Source of the DNA: Squalus acanthias
Lineage: Eukaryota
Assembly: GCA_030390025.1 (NCBI GenBank)
Contig: CM059437.1
Coordinates: forward strand, 24,118,001 to 24,182,000
DNA length: 64,000 nucleotides
Direction of reading: 5' to 3'
A model generated the notes under the pieces. The model ran no database searches. It was not told where the DNA came from and was given only the letters and a program-made list of their open reading frames with translations. Below, piece after piece: positions 21,540 through 61,607 of the stretch (the stretch's first letter is position 1; each line of letters opens with the position of its first letter). Position numbers and translations under genes: made by a program.

Positions 21540-21746
<207 letters not shown>

Positions 21747-29122: not shown

Positions 29123-29177
29123 CCTTAGCCCTCGATATTCGCGGCTCTTCCAACGGCTTCAAAACAACCAGAAACCG

Positions 29178-29235: not shown

Positions 29236-29258
29236 CTACCATGACATCACTCAGTAGC

Positions 29259-35028: not shown

Positions 35029-35219
35029 ATGGAGGGCAGCGCTTGGCTGCCGCTGTGGCTTTCCATTTCAGTCTGGGACGAGAGCTTCTGGCTTCCTCAC
35101 AACGTCAGCAGGGCACAGCTGGAAGATTCGCAGAACCCGTTCTACCCCCGGCTCAAGGATCTGTACTTTCTTCTGCCCTGGACTTGGGCGATCTACGTGT
35201 TGCGGCTTCTCTTTGAAAG
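35029..35219 (+). CDS. Ceramide synthase (CERS5/CERS6-like), exon 1
   Basis: 191 bp; MEGSAWLPLWLSISVWDESFWLPHNVS...YPRLKDL...LRLLFER; FWLP-N-x-S glycosylation motif; donor GTAAAG; CCAAT at 34945 upstream. Confidence 0.9.
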
Positions 35220-35735
35220 GTAAAGGGAGAGAGGGGGGGGGAATACACCCATGAGCAGAGTATGGCAAATTCAATCTTGTGTACGTGGATTTTTTTTTGG
35301 CAAGCTAGCACTCCCTTTTTACATAGGTTGTAAACTTCTGATGAACTATGTTTTGAAAGTACTTTATTTGGGAATTTCACTTTAAGCGAACCGCCCCCCC
35401 AACCAACCAAAAAAAAAAGACATCCTCATAATTGAAAAAGCGAGGCTGTGTCAGCTCAGCTCGAAACTCCCAACTTTACAAGTAGATGCCCTGGCAGTGT
35501 TCCGCCGACAGACGTCGCCAGGCAATTGCAGTTTATATACAGTGTCCATGCATGAACAGCCGTCTGACACTTGCAATCATAGACTCTTACAGCACAGAAG
35601 GAGGCCATTCCGCCCATCGTGTGTGCCCGTACTGGCTCTTTTTAAAGAGCTAGCCAGCTAGTCCCACACCCCTGCTCTTTCCCATAACGCTGCAATTTAT
35701 TCCCTTTCAAGTTGGTTTCATTTTTTTTAACAATT

Positions 35736-37131
35736 ACAACTTGAATTTATATAGCACCATTGACGTAGTAAAACATTCCAATGCGCTCCACAGGAGCGTT
35801 ATCCAACACAATTTGACACCGAGCCACATGAGATAATAGGACAGGTGGCCAAAGAGGTAGATTTTAAGGAGCCCCTTAAAGGAGGAGAGGCGGAGAGGTT
35901 TAGGGAGGGAATTCCAGAGCTTGGGGCCTCGGCAGCTGAAGGCACAGCCACCAATGCTGGAGTGATTTTGAAATAGGAAATGTGCAAGAGGCCAGAATTA
36001 GAGGAGTGCAGATATCTCGAGGGGGGGGAGGGTGGTTGTGGGGCTGGAGGAGGTTACAGAGATGGGGAGGGGTGAGGCCATGGAGGGATTTGAAAACAAG
36101 GATGAGAATCTTTAAATTGAGGCGATGCCAGACTGGGAGCCAATGTAGGTCAGAGAGCACAGGGGTGATGGGTGAACAGGACTTGGTGCGAGTTAGGATA
36201 TGGGCAGCAGAGTTTTGGAGGAGCTCAAGTCAATGGAGTGTGGAAGATGGGAGGCCTGACCAGGAGAGCATTAGGATAGTCAAGTCTAGAGGTAACAAAG
36301 GCATGGATGAGGGCTTCAGCAGCAGATGAGCTGAGGTGGGGCGGGGTCGGGCTATGTTACAGAGGTGGAAGTAGGCAGTCTTGATGATGGCACAGATATG
36401 TGATCGGAAGCTCCTCTCGGGGTCAGATACGACACCAAGGTTGTGAATGGTCTCTTTCAGCCTCAGACAGTTGCCAGGGAGAGGGATGGAATCAGTGGCT
36501 AGGGAACGGAGATTGTGGCGGGGACCAAAGACAATTGCTTCGATCTTGCCAATATTTAGTTGGAGGAAATTTCTACTCATCCAGTACTGGATGTTGGAGA
36601 AGCAGTCTGACAATTTAGAGACAGTGGAGGGGTCGAGGGAGGTGGTGGTGAGGTAGAGCTGGGTGCCGTCAGCGTACATGTGGAACCTGACGTTGTGTTT
36701 TTGGATGATGTCACCAAGAGTCAGAATTTAGATGAGAAATAGGAGGAGGCCAAGGATAGATCCTTGGGGGACTCCAGAGGTAACGGTGTGGAAGCGGGAA
36801 GAGAAGCCGTTGCAGTTAATTTCTGGCTAAGACTGGCTAAATAAGAATAGAACCAGGCGAGTGTAGTCCCAGCTGGACGACGGAGGTGTGGCTTTGGAGG
36901 GTATGGTGTGATCAACCGTGTCTAAGGCTGCAGACAGGACGAGGAGGGTTAGTTTACCATGGTCACAGTCACGTCGGATGTCATTTGTGACTTTGATCAG
37001 GGCCGTTTCAGTACTGTGGCTGCGGCGGACACCTGATTGGAAGGATTCAAACATGGAGTTCCGGGAGAGCTGGGCACAGATTTGGGAGGCGACAGCACTT
37101 TCATGAACTTTGGAGAGGAAAGGGAGGTTGG
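35736..37131 (-). mobile_element. L2 LINE fragment
   Basis: FQSG..HSTETALIKVTND, YADGTQLY, LHWLPVWHR. Confidence 0.9.
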
Positions 37132-38831
37132 AATAATAAAAATTATAAAGGGTGCAATTAATTTATGTTACAGTTGATATTTGCCAATGGATAATACATC
37201 ATTAAGTTGGAACATGTAGTGTCCTTCCATTATATCTTAAGTTTCAATGAATAAAGTTAAAACAAAATTTTGGATTGTAGCTCCACTAAAACTAATGAAC
37301 ACCTAATAATGAAAGGAGATACTTGTTGTTAAATCGCGTTTATTGTTAAAATGTATTATCATCTGCAAAGTTTTTTCCCCCCATTTTGTTGCTAATTTTC
37401 TTTGCTGCCCACCTCATCTAAAGGCATTAACTCCCTGCTGGGTACAGCTAAATGCTCTGTGGTGTACCTCACCCAAATGCCCATTATTCATGTGTGACCC
37501 TAGACAATGACTGTTAGTAACTTATTTGAATGTTGGGGTATCACAGCCAAACCCAATCCCATCCTCACTCAACCTCCATGCACATGCTTTACCAGCAGTG
37601 ATCCCTGGATAGCAATCAGAAATCAAACCTGGGCCCTTCTACAGCTCCGCTACCTCCTGGGTAAACTTGCTCAGACATTGGGATTGATCCGTGAAGTTTG
37701 AAAAGCTGGCAAAGTTATGGTACATGCAGGGTCACATCACACTCGCATGTACATACGCCAGACCAGTCAGGGTCCACATGATGTCAACTTTCTTTAACTT
37801 TAGAAAGTATATGAGGCATATATGGATGGTTGCATACATTTAGGAAGCATTACATAAAATCAGGAGTGAGACTATTACTTGGGTGGCAACACGCAGCGAT
37901 GGCAGACTTGGGACACTGGGACATGTGAGAGGGAGTTTCAAATTTACTTTGGTGTCTGGTATTAAACTGCATATTTAAGTATTATTTTGGTCAAGTTCCC
38001 TCGATCAAGAAGGACACAATTTCGATCCCTGTTCTGTGCCGAGTTAGTGGATCTAAAAATTGGGAGAGATGTAAGACGAGTTGCTAATTCGTTATTATCC
38101 ATTTTACAGTATCGCACAAAGTCAAAATTACCCCCACTGTCTCAGTTCAGAGTAGGATAAAATATTTCAACATAAGGCCATGGCCCACATGGAAATATGC
38201 CATTTGACATGGTTTGTTCAATAAGTTAGCAAAGGCAATGAAGGCATCTGCAGTATCCAGGTTTAGAATCAGCACAGCAGCAATGAATGACATTCCCTGC
38301 ACATATGCTAGATCAGGCAGTTCCTACTAGGCAGTTCAAGTAATGGCTACTTGGGTGAGGTACTGAAGGATGGATGGGATTCTCAGCAAACTTGTCCCTC
38401 TCTAATCAGTGAGTGCCGAGGCCACTTGTACTGCTGGCCTGGCTGAGATCAGCTAACACCTGAAGCTAAAACTTGGGACCTTCCTGCTCTAGGTGGCTTA
38501 GATACTCATTGTGCAAACTCAATAATCCATGAGAGACCCTTGTCAGTAACTTTCTGTGATCAACTACATGAAGATTAAGAGCAAACTGAACCTTTTCCGT
38601 GAGGTGCTTCTTGCCTCTGTCCCGTGGTGACTTACCCCATCTTGAATGTCTAAAAATGGAGTTGTGTATTAAATTTGCAGGACCAAGTCAATACCAAATA
38701 CGTAAAGAATTCTGATTTGTACCTTGTCCCCTCTCCCAGTAAAACCATTACAGGTTCAGTAATTGAGCCAAAACTAAGGATTGCAAATAGCACCTTCATA
38801 TCTCCAAGCCCAATGATTCTTGCCAACATAA

Positions 38832-39600: not shown

Positions 39601-39761
39601 ATTTCTGCATTAACAAATACAGCTCCATATAAGGTGAATTTAATGAGATTCTTCCCTTGTCCCTATCAGTCTTTACCCACAGACCAGTACAACTCTCCTA
39701 CTCTGTTATCTTATCGATAGTTTCACTCTTCTATTCATCGAGTGAAACTTGTAATTATAAA

Positions 39762-40410: not shown

Positions 40411-40569
40411 GTACCTCTTAGCTCTTCGTTGTGCTATGCAATGCAAAGATGTGGGATCAAACTCACATTTCCCCACTTGGTGAGTTTCAACCTCTACATT
40501 GCTGTCAATGGGAGTTGCTGGGCAGAGGCATTAGGGAGAGAGAGAAAACTGGAAGGCAAATCTCCTAAA

Positions 40570-40657
40570 TACTAGCTGCTGACTGTATAGTACTATTGAC
40601 AAATAGTGGTGGGAGAATGTAGAGCACTACTGACAAATATCATTGGCAGACTATATA
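40570..40657 (+). repeat. Degenerate ~34-bp minisatellite, segment 1
   Basis: Units of the form gactgtagagcactattgacaaatattagtggca. Confidence 0.7.
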
Positions 40658-40659
40658 GT

Positions 40660-45197: not shown

Positions 45198-46147
45198 AAT
45201 ACTAGTGACAGACTGTAGAGCACAACTGACGGATTTTTGTCAGCAGATCACTTGTCTGTTTGCAATTGATTTTCTTTTCCCCTCCTCAAGCATCTTCTCT
45301 TCTGGTGATGAGGGAATGGTCTGGAAATCTGCTTCCAGGCTGGCTCTACCAATGACACCCTGTAGTTACCTACATGAGAGGATCCTCAGACCAGTCTGGG
45401 GTGACAGGCTATTCAATTTATCCCTCCCGGTGGGAAAGCACGTGGCCTTCACTCAGTACCTCAGATGTGTTGGCGAGTTGTGACACGAACATGTGTCCTA
45501 CCACTTCATGGTATCACCCAATGACTGAAAATTCTCCTTTTCTAAATAGTTCTAAAATTCTTCTAAAATTCTATCAACAGCAGACATGATTTTTAGGCCT
45601 AATTGCCTTTTCCTGTTTCTAAAAATTCTTATAATTGAGAGCTGATATTAGATTTTGATGTTATAACTACGTTACCTATGCTTGTTATTTCACTGTTGTT
45701 TTTTTTTCTTTGTGCCAGATGGTCTTTATCACAGGACTTCAATATATTATGCACACAATAATATACTTGTGTATAATATATGCACTATACACAATGGAAA
45801 TCACATAATTGTGTATTATTCTACAGGCATCCCATTTCTATATGCGGTGTCATATACTAATAAATTGTAACATTGCTGAGAAATCTCAACATTGTATAAA
45901 TGTTATTTTAGTTTAACTGGTTTAATGTAGGTTTCACAGAGCTGCAGCAGTATCTGACACAATCCATGATGGTCTCTGACAAATGCCATGGTCATATTTT
46001 GGTCAGATTCACTGCAGTCCCATCAGATGTGGAAACACAGAGTCACGGGGTTATTTTCACTGTATTTAAAATAACTGCGTTCTGGTGGTATGCTGTGTTA
46101 CTTGTGCTTATTGGTGTATTCTCAAAATTTCTGTTTTATGGTTGTAG

Positions 46148-46253
46148 GTTTATTGCAACACCATTTGCTAAGTCTCTTGGAGTAGACTGTCGGCCAATTC
46201 AGAAGGCTCAGCAAAACATTGTTCTGGAAAAAGTGTTCAAAGATATAACTACG
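46148..46253 (+). CDS. Ceramide synthase exon 2
   Basis: 106 bp; tgtag and GTGAGA; FIATPFAKSLGVDCRPIQKAQQNIVLEKVFKDITT. Confidence 0.92.
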
Positions 46254-46452
46254 GTGAGATTATATTGACCGAGTCTTAGAACTAATTATTACAAAGAAGA
46301 ACTTACGTTAAATAAATATATTTGCAGCAAATGTTTACAAATATAGAAAATGAACTGTTTGTTTCTAAAATTAAGTGTCTCATTTTTCATAATACTCAGC
46401 AACAACAACTTGCATTTATATAGCTCTTTTTAATGTAGAAAAATGATCCAAA

Positions 46453-46919
46453 GAAAGAAAGACTTGCATTTATATAGCACCTTTCATGACCACCGGATGT
46501 CCCAAAGCGCTTTACAGCCAATGAAGTACTTTTGAAGTGTAGTCGCTGTTGTAATGTAGGCAACGCGGCAGCCAATTTGCGCACAGCAAGCTCCCACAAA
46601 CAGCAATGTGATAATGACCAGATAATCTGTTTTTGTTATGTTGTTTGAGGGATAAATATTGGCCAGGACACCGGGGATAACTCCCCTGCTCATCTTCGAA
46701 ATAGTGCCATAGGATCTTTTACGTCCGCCTGAGAGGGCAGATGGGGCCTCGGTTTAACGTCTCATCCGAAAGGCGGCACCTCTAACAGTGCAGCGCTCCC
46801 TCAGCACTGCTTTGGACTGTCAGCCTAGATTTTTGTGCTCAAGTCTCTGGAGTGGGACTTGAACCCACAACCTTCTGACTCTGAGGCGAGAGCGCTACCA
46901 ACTGAGCCACAGCTGACAC
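46453..46919 (-). mobile_element. DeuSINE (SacSINE1-like), full length, inserted in an L2 3' end
   Basis: Best-preserved copy; contains the intact site tttacag-ccaatgaag-tactttt. L2 pieces flank it at about 46399-46452 and 46920-47490. Confidence 0.88.
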
Positions 46920-47490
46920 TGAGAGATGTAATCAGACATAAAATGGACATCAGGCTAAAGAAGGAGATATTAGGAGGGGTGACCAAAAGTTTGGGAAAAG
47001 AGGTGGGTTTTAAGAAGGGTCTGAGAGGAAGAGGGCAGTGGAGGGGCTTAGGGAGGGAATTCCAGAGTGTGGGGCCTAGCTTGCTGAAGGCGTGGCCAAC
47101 AATGGTGGGGTGAAAGGAGGAAGTGATAGTCAGAAGAATGGAGAGTTTTGGGAGGGTTGGGGTAGTAGGGCTGGAGAAGGTTACAGAGATGGGGAGGGGT
47201 AAGGCCATGAAGGGATTTAAACACGTGAATGAGAATTTCAAATTTGAGGCATTGGGGAACCAGAAGCCAATTTCGGTCAGCAAGGGCAGGAGTGATGGGT
47301 GAACGGGACTTGATGTGGATAGGATATGGAGAGCAGAGTTTCGGATGAGCTGAAGATTACAGTTTGTGGAGGATGTGAGGTCAGGCAAGATAGCCTTAAA
47401 ATAATTGAGCCTGGAAGTGACAAAGTCATGGCTGAGTACTTCAGCAGCTGCTGCGCTGAGGCAGGGCGACGGTGGAAATGTTATGATGGC
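46920..47490 (-). mobile_element. L2 LINE fragment
   Basis: FVTSRLNY..IRNSA..GHAFSKLGPTLWNSLP. Confidence 0.8.
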
Positions 47491-48007
47491 TTCTGGTGAA
47501 ATCACCCATATATTTTATATGGTGAGGTGCAACTTTGTACCGGGTTTATTTTCCCTTGCTCAAAATCAGTGACTTTTTTTTAAGGATACTGCACTTCAAA
47601 TCTACTTTGAGACTTTCAGGTCAGTATTTTTAGTGGCTTGTTTTGAGTATATTTTTACCTTGCTGAACACCTGTGGTAATGAATTTCAAAATCACGAATG
47701 GCCGAATTGACATCTAGGAAAAGATCCTAGTTGACTCTATGGAGCTGCTTGCTGCACCCTTTGCTAAACAGCCTACCGTTGTATTAAAAATATGCTATGT
47801 CTCCATGAGGCTGCTGTAGGATTGTCACAAATCTGATTTCTCTTACCAGGTAGTAGAGCTTCCAACTTTCTTTGGTATAACAAAAGATAGTTATTATATC
47901 AAAGGACTACCGGTAGTTTACTATGCCTATTGGGAACTTGTAATCCAGAGAAATCATTTTCGATACTTATCATCAATTTTATGTGGTCATTTTTAATCAT
48001 CTTGTAG

Positions 48008-48138
48008 GAACCTGGCAAAAATCATCTGACTCGTTTGGCAAAACAGCTGGATTGGGATACAAAGAAAGTGATACAATGGTTCAAGCTGCGGCGATACCAG
48101 GACAAACCAAGTCAACTGACAAAGTTCTGCGAGAGCAT
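48008..48138 (+). CDS. Ceramide synthase exon 3 (Hox-like domain)
   Basis: 131 bp; tgtag and GTAACT; EPGKNHLTRLAKQLDWDTKKVIQWFKLRRYQDKPSQLTKFCESM. Frame not shown in the ORF track. Confidence 0.93.
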
Positions 48139-48379
48139 GTAACTGAATCTTGCCATACCACATTTTCTAATGTACAGTTCTGAGAACTCAAAAATATTCT
48201 GTTTTCTTCACCTGTGGCGAGTTGTTTTTTTTCCAGCAATTTCCCCATTTCATACCCCACCCGTGGCTGAGCGTGTGGGTGGATGACACTCCCAGATCCC
48301 TGCCAATGCCACTCTGCAAGCAGTCCCCAGGGGCTGCTATGTTTCTACTGCTGATTTCCTTTGCATCTGTGCTTCATTT

Positions 48380-48868
48380 GAATCATAGAAATTTACGGCA
48401 CAGAAGGAGGTCATTCGGCCCATCGTGTCTGTGCTGGCTGAAAAAGAGCTATCCAGCCTAAGCCCACTTTCCAGCTCTTGGTCCGTAGCCTTGTAGGTCA
48501 CGGCACTTCAAGTGCATATCCAAGTACTTTTTAATAGAGATGAGCGTTTCTGCTTCTACCACCCTTTCAGGCAGTGAGTTTCAGACCCCCACCACACTCT
48601 GGGTGAAAAAAGTTCACCTTTACTCCCCTCTAATCCTTCTACCAATTACTTTAAATCTTTTCCCCCTCGTTATTGACCTCTCTGCTAAAGGAAATAGGTT
48701 CTTCCTATCCACTCTATGCTCTTCATAATTTTATACACCTCAATTAAGTCTCCCCTCAGCCCCCTCCTGTTCCAAAGAAAACAACCCCAGCCTATCCAAT
48801 CTTTCCTCACAGCTAAAATTCTCCAGTCCTGGCAACATCCTCGTAAATCTCCTCTGTACTCTCTCTAG
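48380..48868 (-). mobile_element. CR1 3' part
   Basis: Typical 3' terminus and body (gggttgttttctttggaacag). Confidence 0.8.
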
Positions 48869-50051
48869 AATAAAATTTGTACAGATTGGGTCAGGATTTG
48901 GATTGACATAGATTGTTTTTCATATGAAGGTAGCATGGTGGAGACAAGTGTGTCCAAGTACTAGCATATGGCGCTCTCTGCACTTCTTGATCTCAGCAAT
49001 GCAGAGGTCAGAGATCTGAGGGAAGAATTGGGGGAAGAGTCCTGAATAGGCTCTGCTTGCACGCCTCCTAGCAGCTGGCCCGAGTGGTCATGACGAAAGC
49101 CTGGGAGCTGGTCATCCTTCCAGTGGGAGGTCCATGGCCAGGGAGGCGAAAGTGAAAGTAAAATTGTGGGGCTGGGTAGAGGTAGATGAAATTAGTGAGT
49201 TATTTAATGAGACGAAAATTTTACAAGTTTTTAATGAGACAGTTTTTATAAGGTCGCATTATGTAATGGCACCCAAACATTTGATGACCGCGTGGAAATT
49301 ATAGGTGTAGCAAAATCAAAACATTGGGTAGAAATTGGCCTTCATTGCACCCGTTTTATGGGTCTAAAATGGATGCAACGAGGCCCAATTTCAGGCACCA
49401 ACGTCCTGTGCCCCAAGGACACCTAAAAGTATCTGACCTGAAATTGGGTTGGGCCATTTTTCAAGCAGACCTGGCAGCCACCTAAAACAGGCATTACATC
49501 CCTTACATATGCAAATGTAGAGCTTAACGCCCGTCTCGGGTCCCCTCACAGATATTGGGTTGCGATGAGCGGGGCAGGTGTCAGGCCTGGCCCGCTCGGG
49601 ATTCTTCAGCAGCCTAAGCAGCAGCTGCCAACTAAAAAAAACATTTTTAAAACCTTCATGAGGAGCAAGAGTACTCCTCCCAATGCACAGCACTCCTGAC
49701 GGCCACGATCGGCCTCTCTCCCGTTGTTCTCTTTCCCCCCCCGCCCGTTGTTTACCTGAGGCCACTGCTGGCGAGGCAGACAGCTTGAAATTAGTTGCTG
49801 CAAAAGGACGAGCTGCCTGTGTAGGTGTGACACGCACCTGCTGCTCACCCACATTATTTAGATGAGGCCTGAGGCCCAATTTCAGGCCGGCCTCGGGCTT
49901 CCCATGCTGTGCAGCACCGGTTCAAAAACAGTATTAGTCGTCCAATATTAGTTCTAACTTGGCCAAGCTAAAAATTGAGTAGGCTAGAGAAGCTTAACCT
50001 TCCAGTACTGCCAGGATCTTCAGTTCTAAGCAGTGGGAGAACTACTGAGAC

Positions 50052-50425
50052 TAGGGTTGCCAACCCTCCAGGATTGCCCTGGAGTCTCCAGGAATTAAAG
50101 ACTAATCTGCAGGACACTGCTGTGAGCAACCCTGGAGAGAAATCATTGGGGCATTAAACATTTTCATTGAACACTTTTCTTTATTAGTTATAAAAAATAT
50201 CAGATATGGTGGGGTGGTGGGAGTCTGTTTGACTGACAGTCAAGAATCATCCATTGGGTATTGAATAGCCTATTCGTTTTCCAATCGGCATGGGAAGTTG
50301 GTGCATTGTGCGGATGGACGGGTTGGTTGACCAATGGCAGGAGTGTGGGAGAGGGTAGCGGTAGGAGGCAGGAGGTAATGTGGTGACACCTCCAGGAATA
50401 TGTCCAACCAGAGATGGCAACCCTA
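50052..50425. mobile_element. Non-autonomous hAT-type DNA transposon (MITE)
   Basis: TIRs tagggttgcca...tggcaacccta; perfect 8-bp TSD actgagac at 50044-50051 and 50426-50433. Confidence 0.85.
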
Positions 50426-50672
50426 ACTGAGACTGGCCAATACTGAGAACCGGTGCAATGCAGGTTACTCCATAGGATACTGAGTGAATACGCAATTAAT
50501 TTCCCGAGCTGTGGGTCTTTTCTATGGTAGTTTGTTATTTATAATAGCGAATAAACAACAGTGAGCAATAGTTTAATGTGGAAATAACAAACTCAAAGGC
50601 ATGCATTTAAAGAAAAATGTTTCTGTACAATGTTTCACTGTGTTAGTAAAGCTTTGATTTTTCTCCTTGTAG

Positions 50673-50730
50673 GTGGAAGTTCAGTTTCTATCTATGGGCC
50701 TTTTCATTCAGTTTTTATCACCTGTCAAAG
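50673..50730 (+). CDS. Ceramide synthase exon 4
   Basis: 58 bp; ttgtag and GTAAGG; WKFSFYLWAFSFSFYHLSK. Confidence 0.92.
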
Positions 50731-50869
50731 GTAAGGAAACAAATCAGTTTAATCCCAATTATTTAGCTTGGAACATGTACCGGCAATCGTTTGCCACATG
50801 TGTGGAAAATAGATTTTTCGGGGTCACGTAGAATTTGAATTTTTTTTAAATTTCCATGTCAGTTTTCTC

Positions 50870-51280
50870 CACTCTTGACCTCTCTTCTCTTGAAGGCGTT
50901 CGCTCCTTGCAGGTTCCACAGGCGCTGGTCGCCATCTGGTACCTCACTCAAGTGGCCATGATTGAAGGCTGAGCCTCGGTGGTGACTGTCAGCGAGCTGT
51001 TAGACTGCCAGGGGTATCACAGCTGAGTCTGATCATGTTTCGTTCAAGCTTCACATTCACAGCAGTAGTTGTTGGATGGCAATGAGAAGTGAGAACCCTG
51101 GCTGAATTCCCCCCCCCATCCCAATTTAGTAGCATTGAAGCCAGGTGTAGCCTTGCCCCATTCTGTTTCCCTGCCTGAGATCAGCTAACTCAGTGCAGAC
51201 CAGGGATCAAACCTGGGGTCTTGTTGGGCTGTGTGGCTTAGCAAAACTCACTAGATAAACTCACTTAAGCTCTCGGGGGA
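50870..51280 (-). mobile_element. Ancient SINE-like repeat (related pieces at about 31955-32170, 37420-37630, 38330-38520, 59150-59420)
   Basis: Recurrent motifs tgagatcagctaactcag, gtacctcac(c/t)caa, ggtatcacagc, ggatagcaat; B-box-like ggtttgatccc on the minus strand. Confidence 0.5.
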
Positions 51281-51632
51281 TCTTTGTTTCTGAAAGCTCT
51301 ATTTGCCCAGCGCAATTGCACAAATTTACAGATTCGTTAATCTATAATCGGTACCCAGTCTACAACTCCAGCACAAACATTTGTTTCTGGCAGCCTAATA
51401 CTCAGGAGCCAAACAGCCTAGCTGGGATTCTGCCAGATTATTTTGTGCCAGTGCTTAAACGTCGACTGTTGCAAACAGGGTGAGCATCAGTAGGATTTTC
51501 CGAAATCCTTGGGCAAGCTTGTTTAAGTCAGTGTCTGAAGTGTAAATCATTTTCTTTGCTCGGTCTTGTGATTAGTTTTAAAGTTGGTACTTCACTTGTT
51601 TTTCTTGCTAGGCACTAATCTTGTGTCTGAAT

Positions 51633-52958
51633 TCATAGAATCATAGAATGGTTACAGCACAGAAGGAGGCCATTTGGCCCGTCGAGCCCGTGCCGGCTCT
51701 CTGCAAGAGCACTTCAGCTAGTCCCACTCCCCCGCTCTTTCCCCATAGCCCTGCAACTTTTTTTTCCTTCAGGTACTTATCCAACTCCCTTTTGAAAGCC
51801 ACGATTGAGTCTGCCTCATCACCCTTTCAGGCAGTGCATTCCAGATCCTAACCAAACATTTTTCCTCATGTCGCCTTTGGTTCTTTTGCCAATCACCTTA
51901 AATCTGTGTCCTCTGGTTCTTAACCCTTCTGCCAATGGCAGCAACAGTTTCTCTCTATCTACTCGGTCTAGACCCCTCATGATTTTGAACACCTCTATCA
52001 AATCACCTCTCAACCTTCTCTGTTCCAAGGAGAACAACCCCAGCTTCTCTAGTCTACCCATGTAACTGAAGTCCCTCATCCCTGGAACCATTCTCGTAAA
52101 TCTTTTCTGCACCCTCTCTAAGACCTTTACATCCTTCCTAAAGTGCGGTGCCCAGAATTGGACACAATACTCCAGTTGAGGCCGAACCAGTGTTTTATAA
52201 AGGTTCATCATAACTTCCTTGCTTTTGTACTCTATGCCTCTGTTTATGAAGCCCACGATCCCGTATGCTTTTTTAATCGCTTTCTCAACCTGCCCTGCCA
52301 CCTACAACGATTTGTGCACATATACCCCCAGGTCTCTCTGTTCTTGCACCCCCTTTAGCATTGTACCTTTTAGTTTATATTGCTTCTCCTCGTTCTTCCT
52401 ACCAAAATGTATCATTTCGCACTTTTCTGCGTTAAATTTCATCTGCCACTTGTCCGCTCATTTCACCAGCCTGTCTTATGTCTTCTTGAAGTCTATCATC
52501 ATCCTCCTCACTGTTCACTATACTTTCAAGTTTTGTGTCACCTGCAAATTTTGAAATTGTGCCCTGTACACCCAAGTCCAAGTCATTAATATACATCAAG
52601 AAAAACAGTGGTCCTAGTACCGACCCCTGGGGAACACCACTGTATACCTTCCTCCAGTCCGAAAAACAACCGTTCACCACTACTCTCTGTTTCCTGTCAC
52701 TTAGCCAATTTCGTATCCATGCTGCCACTGTCACTTTTATTCCATGGACTTCAACTTTGCTGGCAAGCCTATTATGTGGCACTTTATCAAGCGCCTTTTG
52801 GTAGTCCATGTACACCACATCAACTGCATTGCCCTCATCAACCCTCTCTGTTACCTCATCAAAAAACTCGATCAAGTTAGTTAAACACGATTTGTCTTTA
52901 ACAAATCGTGCTGGCTTTCCTTAATTAATCCATACTTGTCCAAGTGATTGTTAATTCA
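51633..52958 (-). mobile_element. CR1 LINE fragment
   Basis: [38 protein letters not shown]; (ctatgatt)n tail. Confidence 0.92.
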
Positions 52959-53063
52959 TGTATGTATTTAGAAAAAAGTTCTCTATAAAAAGATTTTTTT
53001 TTTAATTGCTTTATCCTGCACGTATAATTTTTAAAATTTGTGTATACTTTTTTTTCCCCACAG

Positions 53064-53114
53064 AGTCCCTGGCTGTGGGATAGCAGAGAGTGCTGGTACA
53101 ACTATCCCTTTCAT
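53064..53114 (+). CDS. Ceramide synthase exon 5
   Basis: 51 bp; cccacag and GTGAGA; SPWLWDSRECWYNYPFH. Confidence 0.93.
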
Positions 53115-53204
53115 GTGAGAATTATTTTATTATGTCTTGATTAACATTAATGATGTGGTGGCACAACAATGCCTTTTGCACCCTGTGATCCCAGATAAAA
53201 ATAA

Positions 53205-53810
53205 AAAGACTTGCATTTATATAGCGCCTTTCACAGGATGTTCCAAAGTGTTGTCACTGTTGTAATGTCAGAAACGTAGCAGCCAATTTGAGCACAGAAA
53301 GCTCCCACAAACAGCAATGTGATAAAGGCCAGATAATCTGTTTTTGTTATGTTGATTAAGGGATAAATATTGGCCAGGACATTCACCTGCTGTTCTTCAG
53401 AATAGTCATGATGCGGAGATGCCGGTGTTGAACTGGGGTGGACAAAATTGAGAGGTCGCACAACACCAGGTTATAGTCCAACAGTTTTATTTGAAATCAC
53501 AAGCTTTCGGAGCTATCGATTGCTCCTTCCTAGCTCCGAAAGCTTGTGATTTCAAATAAAACTGTTGGACTATAACCTGGTGTTGTGCGACCTCTCAACT
53601 TCAGAATAGTGCCATGGGATCTTTTACATTTACCTGAGAGAGCAGACTTCTCCTCTGAAAAATGGCACCTCCGACAGTGCAGCACCCCCTCAGCACTGCA
53701 CTGGAGTGTCAGCCTAGATTTTTGTGCTCCAGTCTTTTGGAGTGGGATTTGAATCCACAACCTTCTGACTCAGAGGTGAGAGTGCTACCCACTGAGCCAC
53801 AGCTGACACC
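53205..53810 (-). mobile_element. DeuSINE interrupted by a Penelope mini-insertion
   Basis: Collinear with 46453-46919 apart from the 53407-53598 insert. Confidence 0.85.
53407..53598. mobile_element. Fold-back Penelope pLTR mini-insertion (family of 29259-30192)
   Basis: Perfect 68-bp arms 53448-53515 and 53531-53598, 15-nt loop; 12-bp TSD cttcagaatagt at 53395-53406 and 53599-53610; same terminus (catgatg(c/t)ggagatgccg) as 29259. Confidence 0.9.
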
Positions 53811-55237
53811 TAAAAAATGAGTTCCTGGTCGTGGCTCTGTCATTGTAAGGGAAAAATAAACATTGGGAGGGCTATCATTGGTCAATGTCTTGCACCTCGC
53901 AGTGGTTAATTGAGCGTAGCAAATTCATTTATTACTCACCTCTGCAGTGGGGGACGGTGGGACGGGGGGAGAAGGCAGAGGCATAGCCCTGCAAAAGGAT
54001 TCCTTTGTTATTCTGAGAAGAGCCCTTGTCCTATCATTGCACTCTGAGCGTTGCTAATAGAGGGTCTGCGCAGTACCACACTTATGGTCTGCTTCACACT
54101 ACTACAGCTCAATCCCTACTTCACCTTGGCAGTCCAATGTGCAAATTATATTTAATTACTTAATCACAGTGGCCTCCCCTGGATTCCTGCAAAAGTCTAA
54201 ACAACAGCTTTTTCCACTCAACAAGCAGAAATTGCATTTTTCTCCATACACATGCAGAGAATGTTATAGAAATGACTTTTACATATTCATTGGTAATTTC
54301 TTGATTTTTTTTTTTTCCTTTCTGACATTTAGGCCAGTTACATGCTTTCTTATACTTAACTAAAACTAAAATTGTTGTTTTCGTTGTACTCAGCTCTATT
54401 TTTTTAATGAAAGTACTCTCAACCTACATCTACTTTCTTGCCCGAGCGATCTCCATACATAGGAACGTGTTAATTGCTGATCTTGCTGCTGGCGAGTCTG
54501 CCAATCTGACCAGTTTGACCAGCTCCAAGCTTCCAACATTTTTTTCAGGTCAAGCCAGATTCTTTCACCTGCACACATCCAGTCGGAGAACAGCTTCATG
54601 TTCTCATCTGAAAAAGATAAACTAAGACTCGCTTTGTTCTGTGTAACCAAATTCATAAATTACTTTTCATTAGAATACATCCAAAAACTTTAAAAGATAG
54701 CAGCAGTAAGTTATTCAACTTTCTAAGTTATTTTCAGGGTAGAGTATATGTTAGTTTTAAGTTAGCATATTATTTAAACGCTGATGAGAAGTGGGGAGAA
54801 CTTCCCTCCAAAATCTTAGCCAAATGGAAAATCTGGTTTTATTTGGTTGTGTCAAGGACCCCCACTACAGAATAAATGTGTGTCCTGTGGTATGCGTCTG
54901 ATAATACACTTGCTCACTGGGTGCAGAACGGAAGAACATTCCATTTATCCAGCTTTGTTCACTTTGATGACCAGACATGCAAAGGACTGGGTGACCATGT
55001 GTTGTCCTAAAAATGGGTTTGTGTCCAGCCAGGCTGATGTGGTGAAAGAGTCCTCATTTTACCAACCATAACGCTTCTAGATGAAACAAGCTTGGACAAT
55101 ATCAATCTAGATCCTCGTGCGTGCAAGGCAACAGGACAAAACCACCCAGAATTGGCAAAAAGAGTCACGAGGTTGGATGACATGGAAAACAAAAGCTATA
55201 TTGATGAAGTATGTTTTCCTGAGGTTAGAAAGAAAAA

Positions 55238-55685
55238 AAAGCTTGCATTATTATAGCATCTTATCACGTAGTCAGGACATCCCAAAACACTTCACATATA
55301 ATGAATGATCTTTTGGAAGTGCAGTCACTTTTGTTATGTAGCCGTATACAACAGCCAGTTTGCACACACCAAGATCCCACAAACAGCAAACAAGGTTAAT
55401 GATCATTTTAATCTGTTTTTGCTGGTATTGGTTGATAGGAGAATGTTGGCTAGGGCACCCTGTACTTCTTCCAATAGTGCCATGGGATCTTCTACATCCA
55501 CTTGAACAGGTAGACAGGCCCTGGTTTAACATCTCATCTAAAGTGTGGCACCTCTAACAATGCAACATTCCCTCAGAATTTCATTTGAAGTGCCAACTTA
55601 ATTATTATATGCTTAAGCCCTGGAATGGGGCTTGAATCCACAACTTCTGGCTCAAAGGCAAGAGTGCCAACAACTGAACAAAGCT
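55238..55685 (-). mobile_element. Diverged DeuSINE
   Basis: Tail, Deu domain and head recognisable. Confidence 0.75.
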
Positions 55686-56057
55686 AGAAAATGCTGGAGA
55701 TACTCAGCAGGTCAGGCAGCATCTGTGAAGAGAGAAACAGAGTTAACGTTTCAGGTCGATGACCTTTTGTCAGAACTGGAAAAAAGCAGGAAATGGAACA
55801 GATTTTTAAGCAAGTGCAGGGGCAGGGAAAGGGGGGAGGGGATGAAAGAACAAAAGCCCCTCCCCCCTTTCCCTGCCCCTGCACTTGCTTAAAAATCTAT
55901 TCCATTTCCTGCTTTTTTCCCAGTTCTGACAAAAGGTCATCGACCTGAAACGTTAACTCTGTTTCTCTCTTCACAGATGCTGCCTGACCTGCTGAGTATC
56001 TCCAGCATTTTCTGTTTTTATTTCAGATTTCCAGCATCTGCAGTATTTTCTTTTTGT
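55686..56057. mobile_element. Fold-back Penelope pLTR mini-insertion (family of 2555-5352)
   Basis: Arms of about 156 bp (55686-55841 and 55857-56013), 15-nt loop; 14-bp TSD aactgaacaaagct at 55672-55685 and 56058-56071; hammerhead-like core CTGACAA in both arms. Confidence 0.9.
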
Positions 56058-56714
56058 AACTGAACAAAGCTGTAGGGTAAAGGTACATTGTTGGACCGCA
56101 GTATAGAGAACGTTGTCTTGCATGTAACATGTATTACCTGTGACTTTGTGTTTGATGCTGACATTGGGTTCAACAAATGGAAAAGAGCTGCAGTCCCCAC
56201 CACTGACACTATTCACCGAATTGAGCAGTATTAAAAATAAAAGTTGAAAACTGGTACAAAAATTAAAAGTTTTTCAGTCTACTTTTGAGAAATATCCAAG
56301 TTCTATATAAACAGAAGTCGAACAAAAACTGAGCAGCATGGTAGGTGATTTTTGACCTCCTCATGATTTAACATTTGGGTGATTATCCTTTGCAAATCAG
56401 TGGTAACATAAACCCTGACTTTAACTTGGTTTAGTTACTGGCGGGCGTCCTTCTTTGCTGCTCAGAAGAGCAGGTTAAAATTGTAGCCTGCGGGATCGGT
56501 GTGGGACATCGGTGGGTGAGTTCCATGGGCTGTTTCCGCCAGGTGGGCAGGGTTTTTTTTTTAAAAAGCCCAATTGTTTGAGAAACACAATCATTGATGA
56601 CCATTTAGATTACTTTTTTAAGTGACTTTAAGAAAATATTGGCACCATTCAAAATAAAAAGAAGAAAATTACTTGAGAACTGAAAGTTAAATCCTGTTTT
56701 TTTTTCTTTCAAAG

Positions 56715-56807
56715 GAACTTTCATTTGACGTCTACATACATTTCATGATGGAATTTGCTTTCTATGGGTCACTGATATTTTCACAGTTTTTTGATGTTAA
56801 AAGAAAG
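56715..56807 (+). CDS. Ceramide synthase exon 6
   Basis: 93 bp; tttcaaag and GTAAGG; ELSFDVYIHFMMEFAFYGSLIFSQFFDVKRK. Confidence 0.93.
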
Positions 56808-57928
56808 GTAAGGCTGACACTGACCTCTCTGGTCAAATGATGATGCTCACACACACACCTTCTATTGTTGTTTCTTTAAAATAGCAGTCAAGATGATGAC
56901 ATTAGTGATGGTGTCTGGTGTTCAAATGCCTGCTTGAATCTAACACGTGCTGAGTTTTTCCAACACTCAGTAGGGTCACTCGATGGGATGCCGAGTCCAG
57001 CTCACCTAAAGTACCTCCTTGTTGGTTGAGTTTGAAGCAAGATTGGTGTCAACATCACAGAGAAACATATGACTCACACACCTGACTATGCCCAGTTGAA
57101 ATCAGTGGTGTGGAAACATAGTCTAGAAGGGAAAACATGTGGGAGGCTAAAACTGAGCCTGTGCTGCAGGGATCCAATACCACATTTGTCCAATTGGCAG
57201 ATTGAACTGAATAACAGTGGAGTACCTTATACAATATGATGTATCCTATCCAATGGGTCTCGGGCATGGTTTCTATTTATAGCTTGGCTATAATCAGAAA
57301 TAAATAATAAACACTAATGTAGTGGAAATTAGTGCTTTATTGTTTTTAATAAGTTAAAATCTAACCTTCCCATTATTTAGTTATGTTTTGCACTATTTAT
57401 TTTAATTTTTCAACCTGTTTTAGTCTTGCTTGCAGGACAAATTCACTAATGTGGTTGTTGTGTCTGTAAGTGGGATGTATTCCTAGTAATTCCTCATGTC
57501 TCATTCCTCAAATCTTAATTATGACGGTGGACATAAACATCAGAGGCAAAAGAGAACCTTATTTTAAAAAAATTCAGTCTCTACCATTGTTTGATTTTAA
57601 TCAGGGAAATTAGTTTGGGTATTTCTGATTGTTTCCCTGGATTGTGATTCTGTTATAGTTGTTGGGAGTTTAAACAGTCATTGCTTTCTATCATGCCCTA
57701 ATAAGTAATGAAAGTTGTTTGTGACAGGTGTTCTATTGGGGTGTTTTCATGGAGCACAAAAGTGCGTACCATGGAACCTCATGGAATTGAATAAAAGAAT
57801 GAAAATATGAAATAAAAGTCACGAATGCATCATAAACCATATTTTCCTTCGAAAGAAAGGTCAGATTACAAGCACAACCACTGATCTTTTTGGCACTTGC
57901 CCTCTTGTGTAAATACCTCACTGCATAT

Positions 57929-58432
57929 AAGAACATAAGAAATAGGAGCAGGAGCAGGCCATTTGGCCCCTCGAGCCTGCTCCGCCATTCAATAAGATCA
58001 TGGCTGATCTTCTACCTCATCTCGACTTTCCTGCACGATCCCCATATCCCTTGATTCCCTTAATATTCAAAAATCTATCGATCTCTGTCTTATATACTCA
58101 ACAACTGAGCCTCCACAGCCCTCTGGGGTAGAGAATTCCAAAGATTCACCACACTCTGAGTGAAGAAATTTCTCCTCATCTCAGTCCTAAATGGCCGACC
58201 CCTTATTCTAAGACTGTGACCCCTGGTTCTCAACTCCCCAGCCAGGGGAAACATCCTCCCTGCATCTACCCTGTCGAGCCCTGTAAGATTTTTGTATGTT
58301 TCAATGAGATCACCACTCATTCTTCTAAACTCTAGAGAATATAGGCCTAGTTTACTCAATCTCTCCTCATAGGACAATGACCCCATCTCAGGAACCAGTC
58401 TGGTGAACCTTTGTTGCACTCCCTCTATGGCA
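57929..58432 (-). mobile_element. CR1 3' part
   Basis: IEGVQQRFTRLVP..RRNFFTQSVVNLWNSLP. Confidence 0.9.
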
Positions 58433-58666
58433 ATACACCATAGTCCAAAGTTCCTCTCTGCAGGCGACATGCCACAGGCTTACAAGCTCCTCCCTCGACA
58501 ACATGCAGACTAGAAGTGACACATGGATAGTCCCCGCAATGCATTCACAGCCCTCTGCAGCACTCGCATGTCTGGAGAACCTAAACTACGGATTTGGATT
58601 TGACCTCAAATTATTAAATAAACATTGCAATCTGACCACATCTCCACACATGGAATGGACCTGCAT

Positions 58667-59097
58667 ATATGAGGAAAGGTTGAGCAGGTTGGGCCTATAC
58701 TCATTGGAATTTAGAAGAATGAGAGATGATCTTATTGAAACATATAAGATACTGAGGGGGCTTGACAGGGTAGATGCAGAGAGGATGAAATCTAGAATGC
58801 GGGGGCACAGTTTTAGAATAAAGGGTCGCCCTTTTAGAACTGAGATGAGGAGGAATTTCTTCTCTCAGAGGGTCGTAAATCTGTGGAATTCTCTGCCCCA
58901 GAGAGCTGTGGAGGCTGGGTCATTAAACACATTTAAGGTGGAGATAGACAATTTTTTGCAAGATAAGGAGTGAAGGGTTATGGGGAGCGGGCGGGGAAGT
59001 GGCTTTGAGCCCAAGATCAGCCATGATCTTATTGAATGGCGGAGCAGGCTCGAGGAGCCAAGTGGCCTATTCCTGCTCCTATTTCTTATGTTCTTAT
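58667..59097 (+). mobile_element. CR1 3' part, inverted relative to 57929-58432
   Basis: YEERLSRLGLYSLEFRRMR..RRNFFSQRVVNLWNSLP; (ttcttatg) tail. Confidence 0.9.
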
Positions 59098-61478
59098 ATC
59101 TGTAACTTCAGTGCCATCCTCAAAATAAATTTGTTTGCTATGATTCTATTTAGGTAAGTGTGTTAAACTATATTCCAGTGTGGTGCTGAGCAGTGCAGGC
59201 CAGGAATGCCTGTCTGTGGCCTGTTCTGACTTAGCAGGTCTCAGCAGGGACACTAAAATTCACCTCAATGCCTCTGGATTTGGGAGGAGTAAAGGCAGGC
59301 AGGATTCTTTCTGCTGATCATTAACTAGTGATTCTTGTAGGAAACTGCATGTGCACAGACATCAGGTGAAGACAGGATTAGATTTTGCTGTGTAGTTCCA
59401 TCATGGTCGAGTACCCCGCTGGCACTCGAAGTTTGATTTTTTTTTTCCGGCCGCGTCCCACCAGCTTTTCCAGCGGATCTAGGGCGGATGGGCCTGACCA
59501 ATTGCTCAGGGACAAACTATGATGTGTCCCATTCCTGTCTTCCCTCCAAGCACCACCCCACCCCACTGCCGCCGTGCCATTTTCTGGTGGGCAAGTCCAG
59601 CAACGAAAAATGTACCCACCCATATGTAAGTGGGTGCATGTAAATGACATGCCAATGAGAAAAATATGTCCTCCAAGGTATTTCTGGCATTTGTGTCAGC
59701 TGGATGTAAAGCTCCACTTGTTGGGTCCAGGGATTCGGTGTTTAACGGTGTAATGTATTATCACATGGTTTGTCAATCTGGCACGATCTCCGTTAGAAAA
59801 ATTGCTTTCTTCTGCTCACGAATTACTTTATTTTGAGCTTGAACATTCTCATCTGCACTTTCGGTCTCAATCATGTTATTGGCCTTAAAAAGCATCTCCA
59901 CCCGCTCAGTGTAAGAACTGAATGGTTCGTGAGCTCAGTCATACATGCCGAGGCTTCCGATGAATCCCGTAGGCGCAGTCATGTTGTCCCGATCCTGTTG
60001 AGCAGTGACTCAGCACGCTACCTGTGAGAATCAACACCGCTGTTGCTGTGTATACATACACGTGACGGCGAAGCACAGACAATTCTGCATCAACATTAAC
60101 AGTAAAAATTCGCAAAAAAATTCAGTTTAGGTGTTACAAATTCACCTTAAACTTTTCCACTTGAAGGTTGTGTCCTTCCATGATCCCTAAAAATGGCTTT
60201 GGGATCCCATTCTCGTCGCCAAAAATGTAATATATGTGGGTAGAACAAATGAAGGACAGAAACGGGATGAATTGCCAGTCAAGGTGCTTGTTTACTAGGC
60301 CAGAGCGAATTAAGCATGCTCATACTAAACCATGTGCTAATACATTACAAGCGGGTAGGTGGGGAGAGCAAAAGGATGATGCTGGCAGCAAGGGCAGGTG
60401 TTATGGCTAGACAAATTGTGGGAGGGGAGGGAATTTTAACAATTTTGCTGGGATCTTTGAGACTACATAGAATATACAGCACAGAAACAGGCCATTCAGC
60501 CCAACCAGTCCATGCCGGCATTTATGCTCCACTTGAGCCTCCTCCCGTCCTTCCTTGTCTAATTCTGAGACTGCGGCAACCTTCACATGCAGCTGAGGCT
60601 CTATGACTCCGGTATGTTAATGACCCTGGGGCCAGAGATTTGGTCAGGGTCAGGGCAACTCCATGGCAAGTGGAAGTCCTGCCCCGCTCGCAATACACCC
60701 CAATTGGACAATCCAGGCTTCACTGATCAGGCTCACACTTGAGTAAATTACTGGACAAGTGTGGTGCCTGTCAAACCATATCCTACCAAGTCACTGCCTT
60801 CAGGAGGCAGGGGAGGGGAGGGGTGGAGTGGGGTGCGGGGGGAGAGAGAAAATTGGGACGGGGGAAAGATGAAGCAAAATACAAATTGAGGAAACGGATT
60901 CTGTCCCCAGAATATCAAACAAAAACGTCTTGAGCGTTGGGACTTTTTTTAACAAATGCTATGCTTTTAACCTTGGTGCTTATTCTTCCCCTGCCTTTTA
61001 GCACTCCCCATCTCCACCACCCAAAGTGTGGAATGCTGCCCTCTAATTCTGGTTCATTGCACTTTTCTGAACGGTGTACTGTAAACTGAGGGATGGGAAA
61101 AATTGGGAGGGGTAGTGCAGGTAAGTAGTGATCGAATGAACATCAACAGCAATCTGAGGAAGTTTTGCATTTACTGATTACAATTCTAAGGAAGTTCCAA
61201 AAGACGGTACCTCGAACAATGCAGCACTCCCTCAGTACTACACTGGAGTGTCAATCTAGATAAAGTGCTCAAGCTCCTGGTACGGGGCTCAGACTCATCT
61301 GACCCGAGAGCAAGAGTATTGGGCACAAGCTCGGGTCCCTTAGCTGGGACTGCAATCTACAGCCTATTACATTATTAGTGGGAACACCACTCACTGAGCC
61401 AACCGACTATCCGACAAGTGCGCTGAAACGAGTCAAGATCCAAATAATCTGGGTTACCTTTCACTTCTTTGTCTTTAG

Positions 61479-61607
61479 GATTTTGTTGTCATGTGTGTCC
61501 ATCATCACGTCACCATTCTGCTGCTTACAATCGCTTATGTTGCCAACATGACACGGGCAGGGAGCATTATTCTCCTCTTGCATGATGCAGCTGACATTGT
61601 TTTAGAG
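61479..61607 (+). CDS. Ceramide synthase exon 7 (Lag1p motif, TLC domain); gene continues beyond the window
   Basis: 129 bp; ctttag and GTAGGT; DFVVMCVHHHVTILLLTIAYVANMTRAGSIILLLHDAADIVLE, with the catalytic His-His and HDxxD. Confidence 0.94.

What the first reader, a model, noticed from the sequence alone, without database searches (positions are those of the whole stretch)
35029..61607. Divergent CERS5/6-type ceramide synthase next to RUNDC1: possible third ohnolog lost in mammals
Seen: seven in-frame GT-AG exons (191/106/131/58/51/93/129 bp) encoding a Hox-like plus TLC ceramide synthase, starting 5.9 kb from the RUNDC1 start in divergent orientation. From recall: the 106/131 exon split is the CERS5/6 pattern rather than CERS2/3/4. 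Human RUNDC1 lies at 17q21 near G6PC1 on the HOXB chromosome, with no CERS gene beside it, whereas CERS6 lies near G6PC2 (2q, HOXD chromosome) and CERS5 at 12q13 (HOXC chromosome). Inference: this may be the HOXB-paralogon member of the CERS5/6 quartet from vertebrate genome duplication, retained in sharks.
Basis: partly seen in the sequence, partly recalled or inferred. Interest (0 to 1): 0.75.

Follow-up and report, generated by a model that had tools for sequence, protein, structure and literature searches.

The report
Extra ceramide synthase kept in sharks
Sharks, rays and chimaeras carry an intact seventh ceramide-making enzyme gene, a sister of human CERS5 and CERS6 that most likely dates from the ancient vertebrate genome doublings and seems to be missing from most bony vertebrates.

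Summary
Observation confirmed exactly: seven GT-AG exons give 253 open codons, 5,907 bp from the RUNDC1 start. Exons 8-10 lie beyond the window.

The protein is 96.8% identical to a sawshark 'CERS6-like' and only 50-53% to CERS5/CERS6. Orthologues are named in 17 sharks, rays and chimaera, several with separate CERS5 or CERS6 on other chromosomes. They form a long-stemmed clade (100/100) outside CERS5 and CERS6. Nesting with shark CERS6 or CERS5 is rejected (AU p 0.020, 0.018).

In little skate, Cers6-3 lies beside Rundc1 on HoxB-bearing chromosome 27, one of four copies of ancestral linkage group B. All catalytic residues are kept, and read depths fit a spliced transcript.

Two refinements. 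A probable orthologue survives in sturgeons and paddlefish. The apparent loss covers most bony vertebrates, not just mammals (search-limited). Branching order against lampreys is unresolved.

Verdict: a real, database-annotated but apparently undescribed third CERS5/6-type ohnologue; a new member of a known kind.

The parts
35029..35219 (+). CERS-X coding exon 1: N-terminal luminal Trp cluster, N-glycosylation sequon, TM1
   Evidence: tblastn of orthologue P0107, 97%
46148..46253 (+). exon 2 (106 nt), start of the Hox-like domain
   Evidence: contig cover in 4 of 4 runs laid
48008..48138 (+). exon 3 (131 nt), Hox-like domain and basic CoA-entrance residues
50673..50730 (+). exon 4 (58 nt), TM2 with Tyr149 (human CerS6 Tyr142)
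53064..53114 (+). exon 5 (51 nt), luminal loop
56715..56807 (+). exon 6 (93 nt), TM3 with Tyr196 (CerS6 Tyr189)
61479..61607 (+). exon 7 (129 nt), Lag1p motif: His218/His219, His245, Asp246, Asp249 (CerS6 His211/212, His238, Asp239, Asp242)
34937..35028 (+). conserved upstream stretch with an ATG that is out of frame here (92 nt before the start) but modelled as an in-frame 29-31 aa extension in five other elasmobranchs; probably 5' UTR, uORF or promoter
15442..29122 (-). RUNDC1 coding span, the synteny marker; divergent neighbour
28501..29500 (.). CpG island over RUNDC1 exon 1 (GC 0.52-0.64, CpG obs/exp 0.78-0.98)

Best explanation
The gene (here CERS-X) is an intact, expressed third member of the CERS5/6 subfamily. 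It arose in the early vertebrate whole-genome duplications as the copy on the HoxB-bearing descendant of ancestral linkage group B. It changed quickly early on, has since been strongly conserved in all cartilaginous fishes, probably survives in sturgeons and paddlefish, and appears lost in most other bony vertebrates. Most likely working mechanism: an ER-membrane sphinganine N-acyltransferase using the CerS6 ping-pong reaction. His218 attacks acyl-CoA to form an acyl-histidine, helped by His219. The sphingoid base then binds in the Tyr/Asp/Arg side pocket and takes the acyl chain, giving (dihydro)ceramide, most likely C14-C18 because the TM6-TM7 cap loop is of the CERS5/6 type. Shown: gene structure, orthologues, separate paralogues, skate linkage, conserved residues. 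Inferred: WGD origin, enzyme activity, chain length, sturgeon orthology, losses.
For: Orthologues in 17 named chondrichthyan species; 18 of 272 fetched proteins are closest to X, 17 named as chondrichthyan and one unnamed in the chimaera cluster. Tree: X 100/100 with stem 1.4; CERS5 98/95 and CERS6 92/88 each contain their own chondrichthyan members. Nesting rejected. With CERS4 and Ptychodera as outgroups, X lies inside the vertebrate CERS5/6 group, 90/91. Skate supplement (PMC10115646, SI Table 10): Cers6-3 bait at Leri_27C 16.03-16.04 Mb, Rundc1 at 16.04-16.05 Mb, HoxB genes at 5.2-5.4 Mb; Cers6-2 on Leri_40C. SI Table 3 lists LER2, 40, 7 and 27 as the four linkage-group-B copies. His211, His212, His238, Asp239, Asp242 and Trp318 equivalents are kept in 16 of 17 X proteins (the other has a gap); Tyr142, Tyr189 and Arg275 in 17 of 17 (roles from PMC11919693, sections 9-10). 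One contig depth at exons 2, 3 and 7 in 3 of 4 runs, and 11.9/11.4 in the fourth. Of 7 listed exon differences in another species, 6 are synonymous. X and the sturgeon-paddlefish protein share 19 exclusive sites, against 1 (X with CERS6) and 2 (X with CERS5).
Against: Deep order is unresolved. X+Y as sister of CERS6 (p 0.116), as sister of CERS5 (p 0.14) and as a branch older than the hemichordate split (p 0.081) are all not rejected. X shares 13 exclusive sites with Ptychodera. X+Y support is only 91/73 and joins two long branches. No amphioxus, tunicate, hagfish or full CERS2/3 sequence was in the trees. Published pairings conflict: skate SI Table 3 pairs LER27 with LER7, whereas PMC10972751 pairs Hox A/B and C/D. 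That skate 'Cers6-3' is the X orthologue P0282 rests on position, not on a sequence check. All 16 X proteins that cover the site carry Arg at CerS6 Trp21; Ala at the matching CerS5 Trp29 cuts activity by over half (PMC11742613, passages). Exon-exon joints were not displayed because repeats swamped the table, and the runs' RNA label is a guess.
Confidence: 0.8

Rival explanations
1. CERS-X is older than the vertebrate genome duplications: a chordate or deuterostome duplicate that already sat on linkage group B, of which only the HoxB-chromosome copy survived.
For: AU test does not reject X+Y outside Ptychodera plus vertebrates (p 0.081). 13 exclusive X-Ptychodera sites. X+Y falls outside both lamprey genes (86/68).
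Against: The best trees put X inside the vertebrate group (SH-aLRT 91; 90/91). A long stem alone pulls a branch rootwards. It needs more losses, in lampreys and in three gnathostome copies.
Confidence: 0.1
2. CERS-X is an early gnathostome small-scale duplicate of CERS5 or CERS6 that moved next to RUNDC1, landing on the HoxB chromosome by chance.
For: Sister positions to CERS6 or CERS5 are not rejected. Microsynteny with CERS5/6 neighbours (paralogous flanking genes) was not shown.
Against: Chance landing on the one paralogous chromosome of 40 that completes the set is unlikely. Introns are retained, so it is not a retrocopy. X shares only 1-2 exclusive sites with either gene.
Confidence: 0.08
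3. It is a recent shark-specific duplicate, a mis-named CERS5/CERS6 orthologue, or a decaying pseudogene.
For: Databases call it 'ceramide synthase 6-like'; only 7 of about 10 exons are visible here; the conserved Trp21 is lost.
Against: Present in chimaera, sharks and rays at 83-97% identity. True CERS5 and CERS6 coexist. Nesting rejected. Mostly synonymous changes.
Confidence: 0.02

Closest known systems
Human CerS6 (PDB 8QZ6/8QZ7/9EOT) and CerS5, the C16-ceramide synthases
   Same: Hox-like plus TLC architecture, E 1.7e-119 over residues 8-352; same exon junctions; all active-site residues; CERS5/6-type ESWE-x-x-GP cap loop; N-glycosylation sequon.
   Different: Only 50-53% identity, while shark CERS5 and CERS6 are about 80% identical to each other. 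27 of 174 positions near-invariant in CERS5/6 are fixed for another residue, including W21R, F209C, C236L, W302G and F304I. The dimer motif ends in Asp in 11 of the 16 X proteins that have it. Different chromosome. No activity data.
RefSeq/UniRef 'ceramide synthase 6-like' of chondrichthyans (e.g. XP_055513144 skate, XP_042199314 chimaera) and 'Cers6-3' of the little skate annotation
   Same: These are the orthologues: 83-97% identical to the window protein.
   Different: Automatic names only; no paper found that treats them as a distinct gene.
Acipenseriform 'ceramide synthase 6-like' (XP_041087344 Polyodon, XP_058862750 Acipenser ruthenus)
   Same: Also outside CERS5 and CERS6; groups with X (91/73; 90/79); 19 exclusive shared sites; short C-tail; on small records (9.3 and 13.9 Mb).
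   Different: Only 47% identical to X; keeps Trp21 (Polyodon); chromosome neighbours unknown, so it could instead be the fourth (HoxA-side) copy.
Ohnologues retained in cartilaginous fishes and lost in most bony vertebrates (e.g. wnt6b, cspg5)
   Same: PMC10115646 counts 68 differentially retained cases, 24 of them kept in chondrichthyans plus ray-finned fish, and reports faster evolution on beta segments. PMC13450315 reports 135 shark-only ohnologues.
   Different: Whether CERS-X is in those lists could not be seen: the gene lists were not in the files I could read.

Membership tests
Ceramide synthases (CerS/LASS, TLC clade) | TLC domain with Lag1p motif, paired His and two Asp | tested here: met
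Ceramide synthases (CerS/LASS, TLC clade) | Side-pocket and TM7 residues (Tyr142, Tyr189, Arg275, Trp318) | tested here: met
   Arg275 and Trp318 seen in orthologues only, as those exons are outside the window
Ceramide synthases (CerS/LASS, TLC clade) | C-terminal DxRSDxE dimer motif | tested here: inconclusive
   exact in 5 of 17 X proteins, last residue Asp in 11, absent from one short isoform; outside the window itself
Ceramide synthases (CerS/LASS, TLC clade) | Acyl-CoA:sphinganine N-acyltransferase activity | not testable with these tools
   needs an assay
Hox-CerS, CERS5/6 subfamily | Hox-like domain between TM1 and TLC | tested here: met
Hox-CerS, CERS5/6 subfamily | Closer to CERS5/6 than to CERS2/3/4 in sequence, cap loop and tree | tested here: met
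   50-53% vs 42% to goat CERS4; tree 90/91; atlas top hits CERS5/6 at 0.97 vs CERS2 at 0.91. Only one partial CERS4 was available; no CERS2/3 sequence in trees
Hox-CerS, CERS5/6 subfamily | Conserved N-terminal Trp box (CerS6 Trp9, Trp14, Trp21) | tested here: not met
   Trp9 and Trp14 kept; Trp21 is Arg in 16 of 16 covering X proteins
Hox-CerS, CERS5/6 subfamily | C14-C16 acyl-CoA preference | not testable with these tools
   cap loop suggests it; TM4/5/7 changes may shift it
CERS6 orthologues | Groups with chondrichthyan CERS6 | tested here: not met
   AU p 0.020; separate CERS6 in the same species
CERS5 orthologues | Groups with chondrichthyan CERS5 | tested here: not met
   AU p 0.018
Vertebrate 1R/2R ohnologues | Paralogues on chromosomes from the same ancestral linkage group | tested here: met
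   skate chr 27 (direct), chr 40 (direct for Cers6-2), chr 7 (inferred from gene-ID range)
Vertebrate 1R/2R ohnologues | Duplication after the invertebrate split and before the bony/cartilaginous split | tested here: inconclusive
   lower bound met (chimaera, rays, sharks; probably sturgeons); upper bound favoured but not proven, p 0.081
Vertebrate 1R/2R ohnologues | Single pro-orthologue in amphioxus or tunicate on linkage group B | not tested

The most novel reading that the evidence does not exclude
CERS-X is a neofunctionalised seventh vertebrate ceramide synthase. A burst of change (stem 1.2-1.5 substitutions per site) was then frozen across all cartilaginous fishes, rewriting the TM4/TM5/TM7 helices that form the acyl tunnel and the N-terminal lipid-binding Trp box while leaving catalysis intact. 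It would therefore make a ceramide class that CerS5/6 do not (another chain length, hydroxylation or sphingoid base), or act mainly as a regulatory dimer partner, serving a membrane need that most bony vertebrates dropped.
Probability: 0.3. Interest if true: 0.68.

Novelty: new member of a known kind. Interest (0 to 1): 0.5.

Why it matters
The ceramide field counts six CerS genes and treats CERS5/6 as a pair. A third, ancient member changes the family's history: the jawed-vertebrate ancestor had at least seven. It also supplies a natural variant with a CERS5/6-type cap loop but different tunnel-forming helices, a direct test of what sets acyl-chain length in a drug-target enzyme (CerS6). It adds a metabolic enzyme to the list of ohnologues kept by sharks, and may help pair the four Hox-chromosome copies. 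The impact is moderate: shark-retained ohnologues are a known phenomenon, and the gene is already in RefSeq under an automatic name.

Tried and rejected
No genome is held, so CERS5/6 and exons 8-10 could not be sought in this organism. A direct homologue search with exon 1 could not be made. The representative search with exon 1 gave 52 weak hits of 37-49% identity and no X orthologue, but led to the paddlefish protein. The atlas search with exon 1 was uninformative. The run search listed no holder on record as RNA. I laid 4 of 23 listed runs on 45900-62100 only; joints, loose ends and pieces were swamped by repeats, and exon 1 was not covered. AlphaFold on a 6-row alignment gave pLDDT 54.9, so it was not used and no fold search was run. 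The first 54-row careful tree did not finish; its quick tree is, where I mislabelled Acipenser P0209 as CERS5 (it is CERS6). Later trees used 23-28 of the roughly 340 proteins held. Sturgeon and paddlefish gene location was not found: PMC10199039 supplements had 0 hits and the paddlefish preprint passages gave no chromosome sizes. Tissue profile was not obtained: the catshark supplement was unreadable. Whale shark supplements gave 0 hits, with 12 of 24 files not searched. The 11-residue specificity paper is not held. PMC8302630 had no Hox terms. Earlier scan findings: none. Rejected readings: retrocopy (introns present), CERS2/3/4 type (loop, identity, exon break), pseudogene, and the 30-residue N-terminal extension of some RefSeq models as real coding sequence here (out of frame).
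Full report
OBSERVATION. The seven exons are exactly as described: 191/106/131/58/51/93/129 nt between 35029 and 61607, all with GT donors, AG acceptors for exons 2-7, and 253 uninterrupted codons. The RUNDC1 ATG is at 29122 on the opposite strand, 5,907 bp away. Exon 3 matches Homeodomain weakly, exon 7 the TLC domain, and the neighbour's last exon the RUN domain. The full-length orthologue hits only these seven exons, so the last three exons lie beyond the window. About a third of the window is repeated within itself, largely LINE- and SINE-like by its reading frames.

EXPRESSION. I laid 4 of 23 listed runs (labelled 'RNA?', a guess) on 45900-62100. Depth is one figure per contig. It was identical at exons 2, 3 and 7 in X2 (79.5), X9 (72.1) and X13 (474.5), and 11.9/11.9/11.4 in X5. 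The bin holding part of exon 3 had 8.8/1.25/7.99/50 against 8.2/1.2/7.5/49.1 expected from exon-only cover. The bin holding exon 6 matched in X2 and X13 (12.6 vs 12.9; 77.1 vs 77.2) but was higher in X5 and X9. This fits spliced transcripts, although the joints themselves were crowded out by repeats. Of 7 listed exon differences in X9, 6 are synonymous; 792 table rows were not shown. In skate, Cers6-3 appears as a promoter bait in the embryonic fin HiChIP table.

WHAT IT IS. The protein is 96.8% identical over 253 residues to a Pristiophorus japonicus 'CERS6-like' (P0107) and 50-53% to the best CERS5/6. The P0107 cluster has 27 members; the 15 listed are all sharks and batoids. Mustelus and Callorhinchus milii (82.9%) have it too, making 17 named species. 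The same species carry separate genes on other records: Heptranchias X 37.8 Mb vs CERS6 101.2 Mb; Chiloscyllium punctatum 67.5 vs 123.7; Carcharodon 54.6 vs 153.3; Scyliorhinus torazame X 135.7, CERS6 406.2, CERS5 46.3; Callorhinchus X 10.6, CERS5 5.3. Shark CERS5 and CERS6 are 79-80% identical to each other and 50-53% to X.

TREES. With 28 rows (LG+C20+F+G4), X is 100/100 on a stem of 1.4 with short tips. CERS5 (98/95) and CERS6 (92/88) each hold their own chondrichthyan members. X with shark CERS6 is rejected at p 0.020 and X with chondrichthyan CERS5 at p 0.018. Deeper order is open: sister to all CERS6 p 0.116, to all CERS5 p 0.14, older than the hemichordate split p 0.081. Removing the sturgeon rows collapses the base to a polytomy. 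With CERS4 and Ptychodera as outgroups, the best tree keeps X inside the vertebrate CERS5/6 group, 90/91. A divergent 'CERS6-like' of paddlefish and sturgeons (Y) joins X at 91/73, flagged as long branches meeting. X and Y share 19 exclusive sites, X and CERS6 1, X and CERS5 2, X and Ptychodera 13. I rate Y as the bony-fish orthologue at about 0.75.

SYNTENY. In the little skate supplement (PMC10115646, file 2, searched by term; part 1 read), Cers6-3 is at Leri_27C 16.03-16.04 Mb, in the 10-kb bin beside Rundc1, and HoxB genes are at 5.2-5.4 Mb of the same chromosome. Cers6-2 is on Leri_40C with Arf3 and Tarbp2 (that these are human 12q13 genes is recalled). Cers6-1 and Cers6-4 have IDs in the range of HoxD genes (Leri_7C) and Nostrin. 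This last placement is inferred from IDs only, and genes labelled Smarcd1 and Lima1 fall in the same range, so the automatic names are imperfect. SI Table 3 gives LER2, 40, 7 and 27 as the four copies of linkage group B. Three CERS5/6-type genes thus sit on three of four paralogous chromosomes, the pattern expected of ohnologues. Human CERS5 at 12q13.12 and CERS6 on 2q are from PMC2211742 (passages); RUNDC1 at 17q21 is recalled. The skate table pairs LER27 with LER7, which would make X the 2R sister of CERS6. The hagfish paper (PMC10972751, passages) pairs Hox A/B and C/D, which would make X the sole survivor of the other 1R copy and matches my best tree. I cannot decide between them.

LOSS. 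Three searches listed the best 120 of 244, 625 and 690 hits. Of 272 proteins classified, 18 were closest to X, 4 to Y, 248 to CERS5/6 anchors and 2 had no hit. None from mammals, birds, reptiles, amphibians, lungfish, coelacanth, gar, bowfin, bichir or teleosts was X-like. This is limited evidence: the sturgeon protein itself was missing from the top 120, so another fast-evolving orthologue could be hidden.

HOW IT WORKS. Human CerS6 uses a ping-pong mechanism with His211 as nucleophile and His212 as activator. Its sphingoid pocket is Tyr142, Tyr189, Asp239, Asp242 and Arg275, and its acyl tunnel is formed by TM4, TM5 and TM7 and capped by the TM6-TM7 loop (PMC11919693, passages and sections 9-10). 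All these residues are kept in X (numbering checked against 8QZ6), and the cap loop is CERS5/6-like rather than CERS4-like. I therefore infer an active ceramide synthase (about 0.9) with a default C14-C18 preference (about 0.6). Against simple redundancy, 27 of 174 positions near-invariant in 37 CERS5/6 proteins are fixed differently in X, many in TM4, TM5 and the start of TM7, plus Trp21 to Arg. The matching CerS5 Trp29 to Ala cuts activity by more than half (PMC11742613, passages). Which of these residues line the tunnel was not determined; the predicted model was too poor.

KNOWN OR NEW. The gene is in RefSeq as 'ceramide synthase 6-like' and in the skate annotation as Cers6-3. Searches for a description found none: 'CerS7' gave one unrelated paper; ceramide synthase + cartilaginous fish + gene loss gave 0; no paper listed contained 'ceramide synthase'; the single such paper listed has one mention and concerns glycosyltransferases (listing only). 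The CerS6 phylogeny paper (PMC6315813, part 1 and passages) has no mention of shark or lamprey, and the DxRSDxE paper (PMC8789539, passages) none of shark or fish. The library lacks most subscription papers. The skate paper's 68 differentially retained ohnologues and the 135 shark-only ohnologues of PMC13450315 (outline, passages, one supplement with 0 hits) could include it, and I could not see those lists.

VERDICT. It is wider in retention (all chondrichthyans, probably sturgeons) and wider in loss (most bony vertebrates) than proposed. New member of a known kind; interest 0.5.

Noticed in passing
window 34937-35028 (+): An upstream ATG whose first 18 codons are identical to the N-terminal extension of Carcharodon, Stegostoma and Cetorhinus models is out of frame here by a small indel. 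The stretch is conserved at DNA level across sharks and rays, so it may be a regulatory uORF or promoter element, and those RefSeq extensions may be mis-modelled.
   Followed up: partly
P0053, P0080, P0297 (Polyodon, Acipenser): A very divergent acipenseriform CERS5/6-type gene (branch about 2 substitutions per site) with intact catalytic residues where covered. Only one copy per species was retrieved despite the sturgeon genome duplication; both listed paddlefish models skip the catalytic exon.
   Followed up: partly
P0090 (Callorhinchus XP_042200125), P0098 (Huso), P0262 (Scyliorhinus torazame): Named 'ceramide synthase 6' or '6-like' by NCBI but group with CERS5 in the trees; database names in this subfamily are unreliable.
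   Followed up: yes
P0116/P0317 and P0224 (Petromyzon): Two lamprey CERS5/6-type genes; one groups weakly with CERS5 (88/78), the other is basal. Their chromosomes could date the CERS5/CERS6 split to 1R or 2R.
   Followed up: partly
window 15442-29122 (-): RUNDC1 appears intact, with five exons and a CpG island at exon 1. In human the head-to-head neighbour is PTGES3L (recalled), so the CERS-X slot is occupied differently in mammals.
   Followed up: partly
window 2913-4676 and 62233-64000: Two copies, 90% identical over 1.77 kb, of a retroelement with reverse-transcriptase-like reading frames; many other LINE and SINE fragments fill the introns.
   Followed up: no
window 55700-56000 and 34250-34450: Short inverted-repeat elements, heavily represented in all four runs laid where covered (55638-56178 bin); probably a high-copy shark repeat.
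   Followed up: no
PMC10115646 SI Table 3 vs PMC10972751 Extended Data Fig. 8 legend: The two papers pair the four Hox-bearing chromosomes differently (B with D vs A with B).
   Followed up: partly
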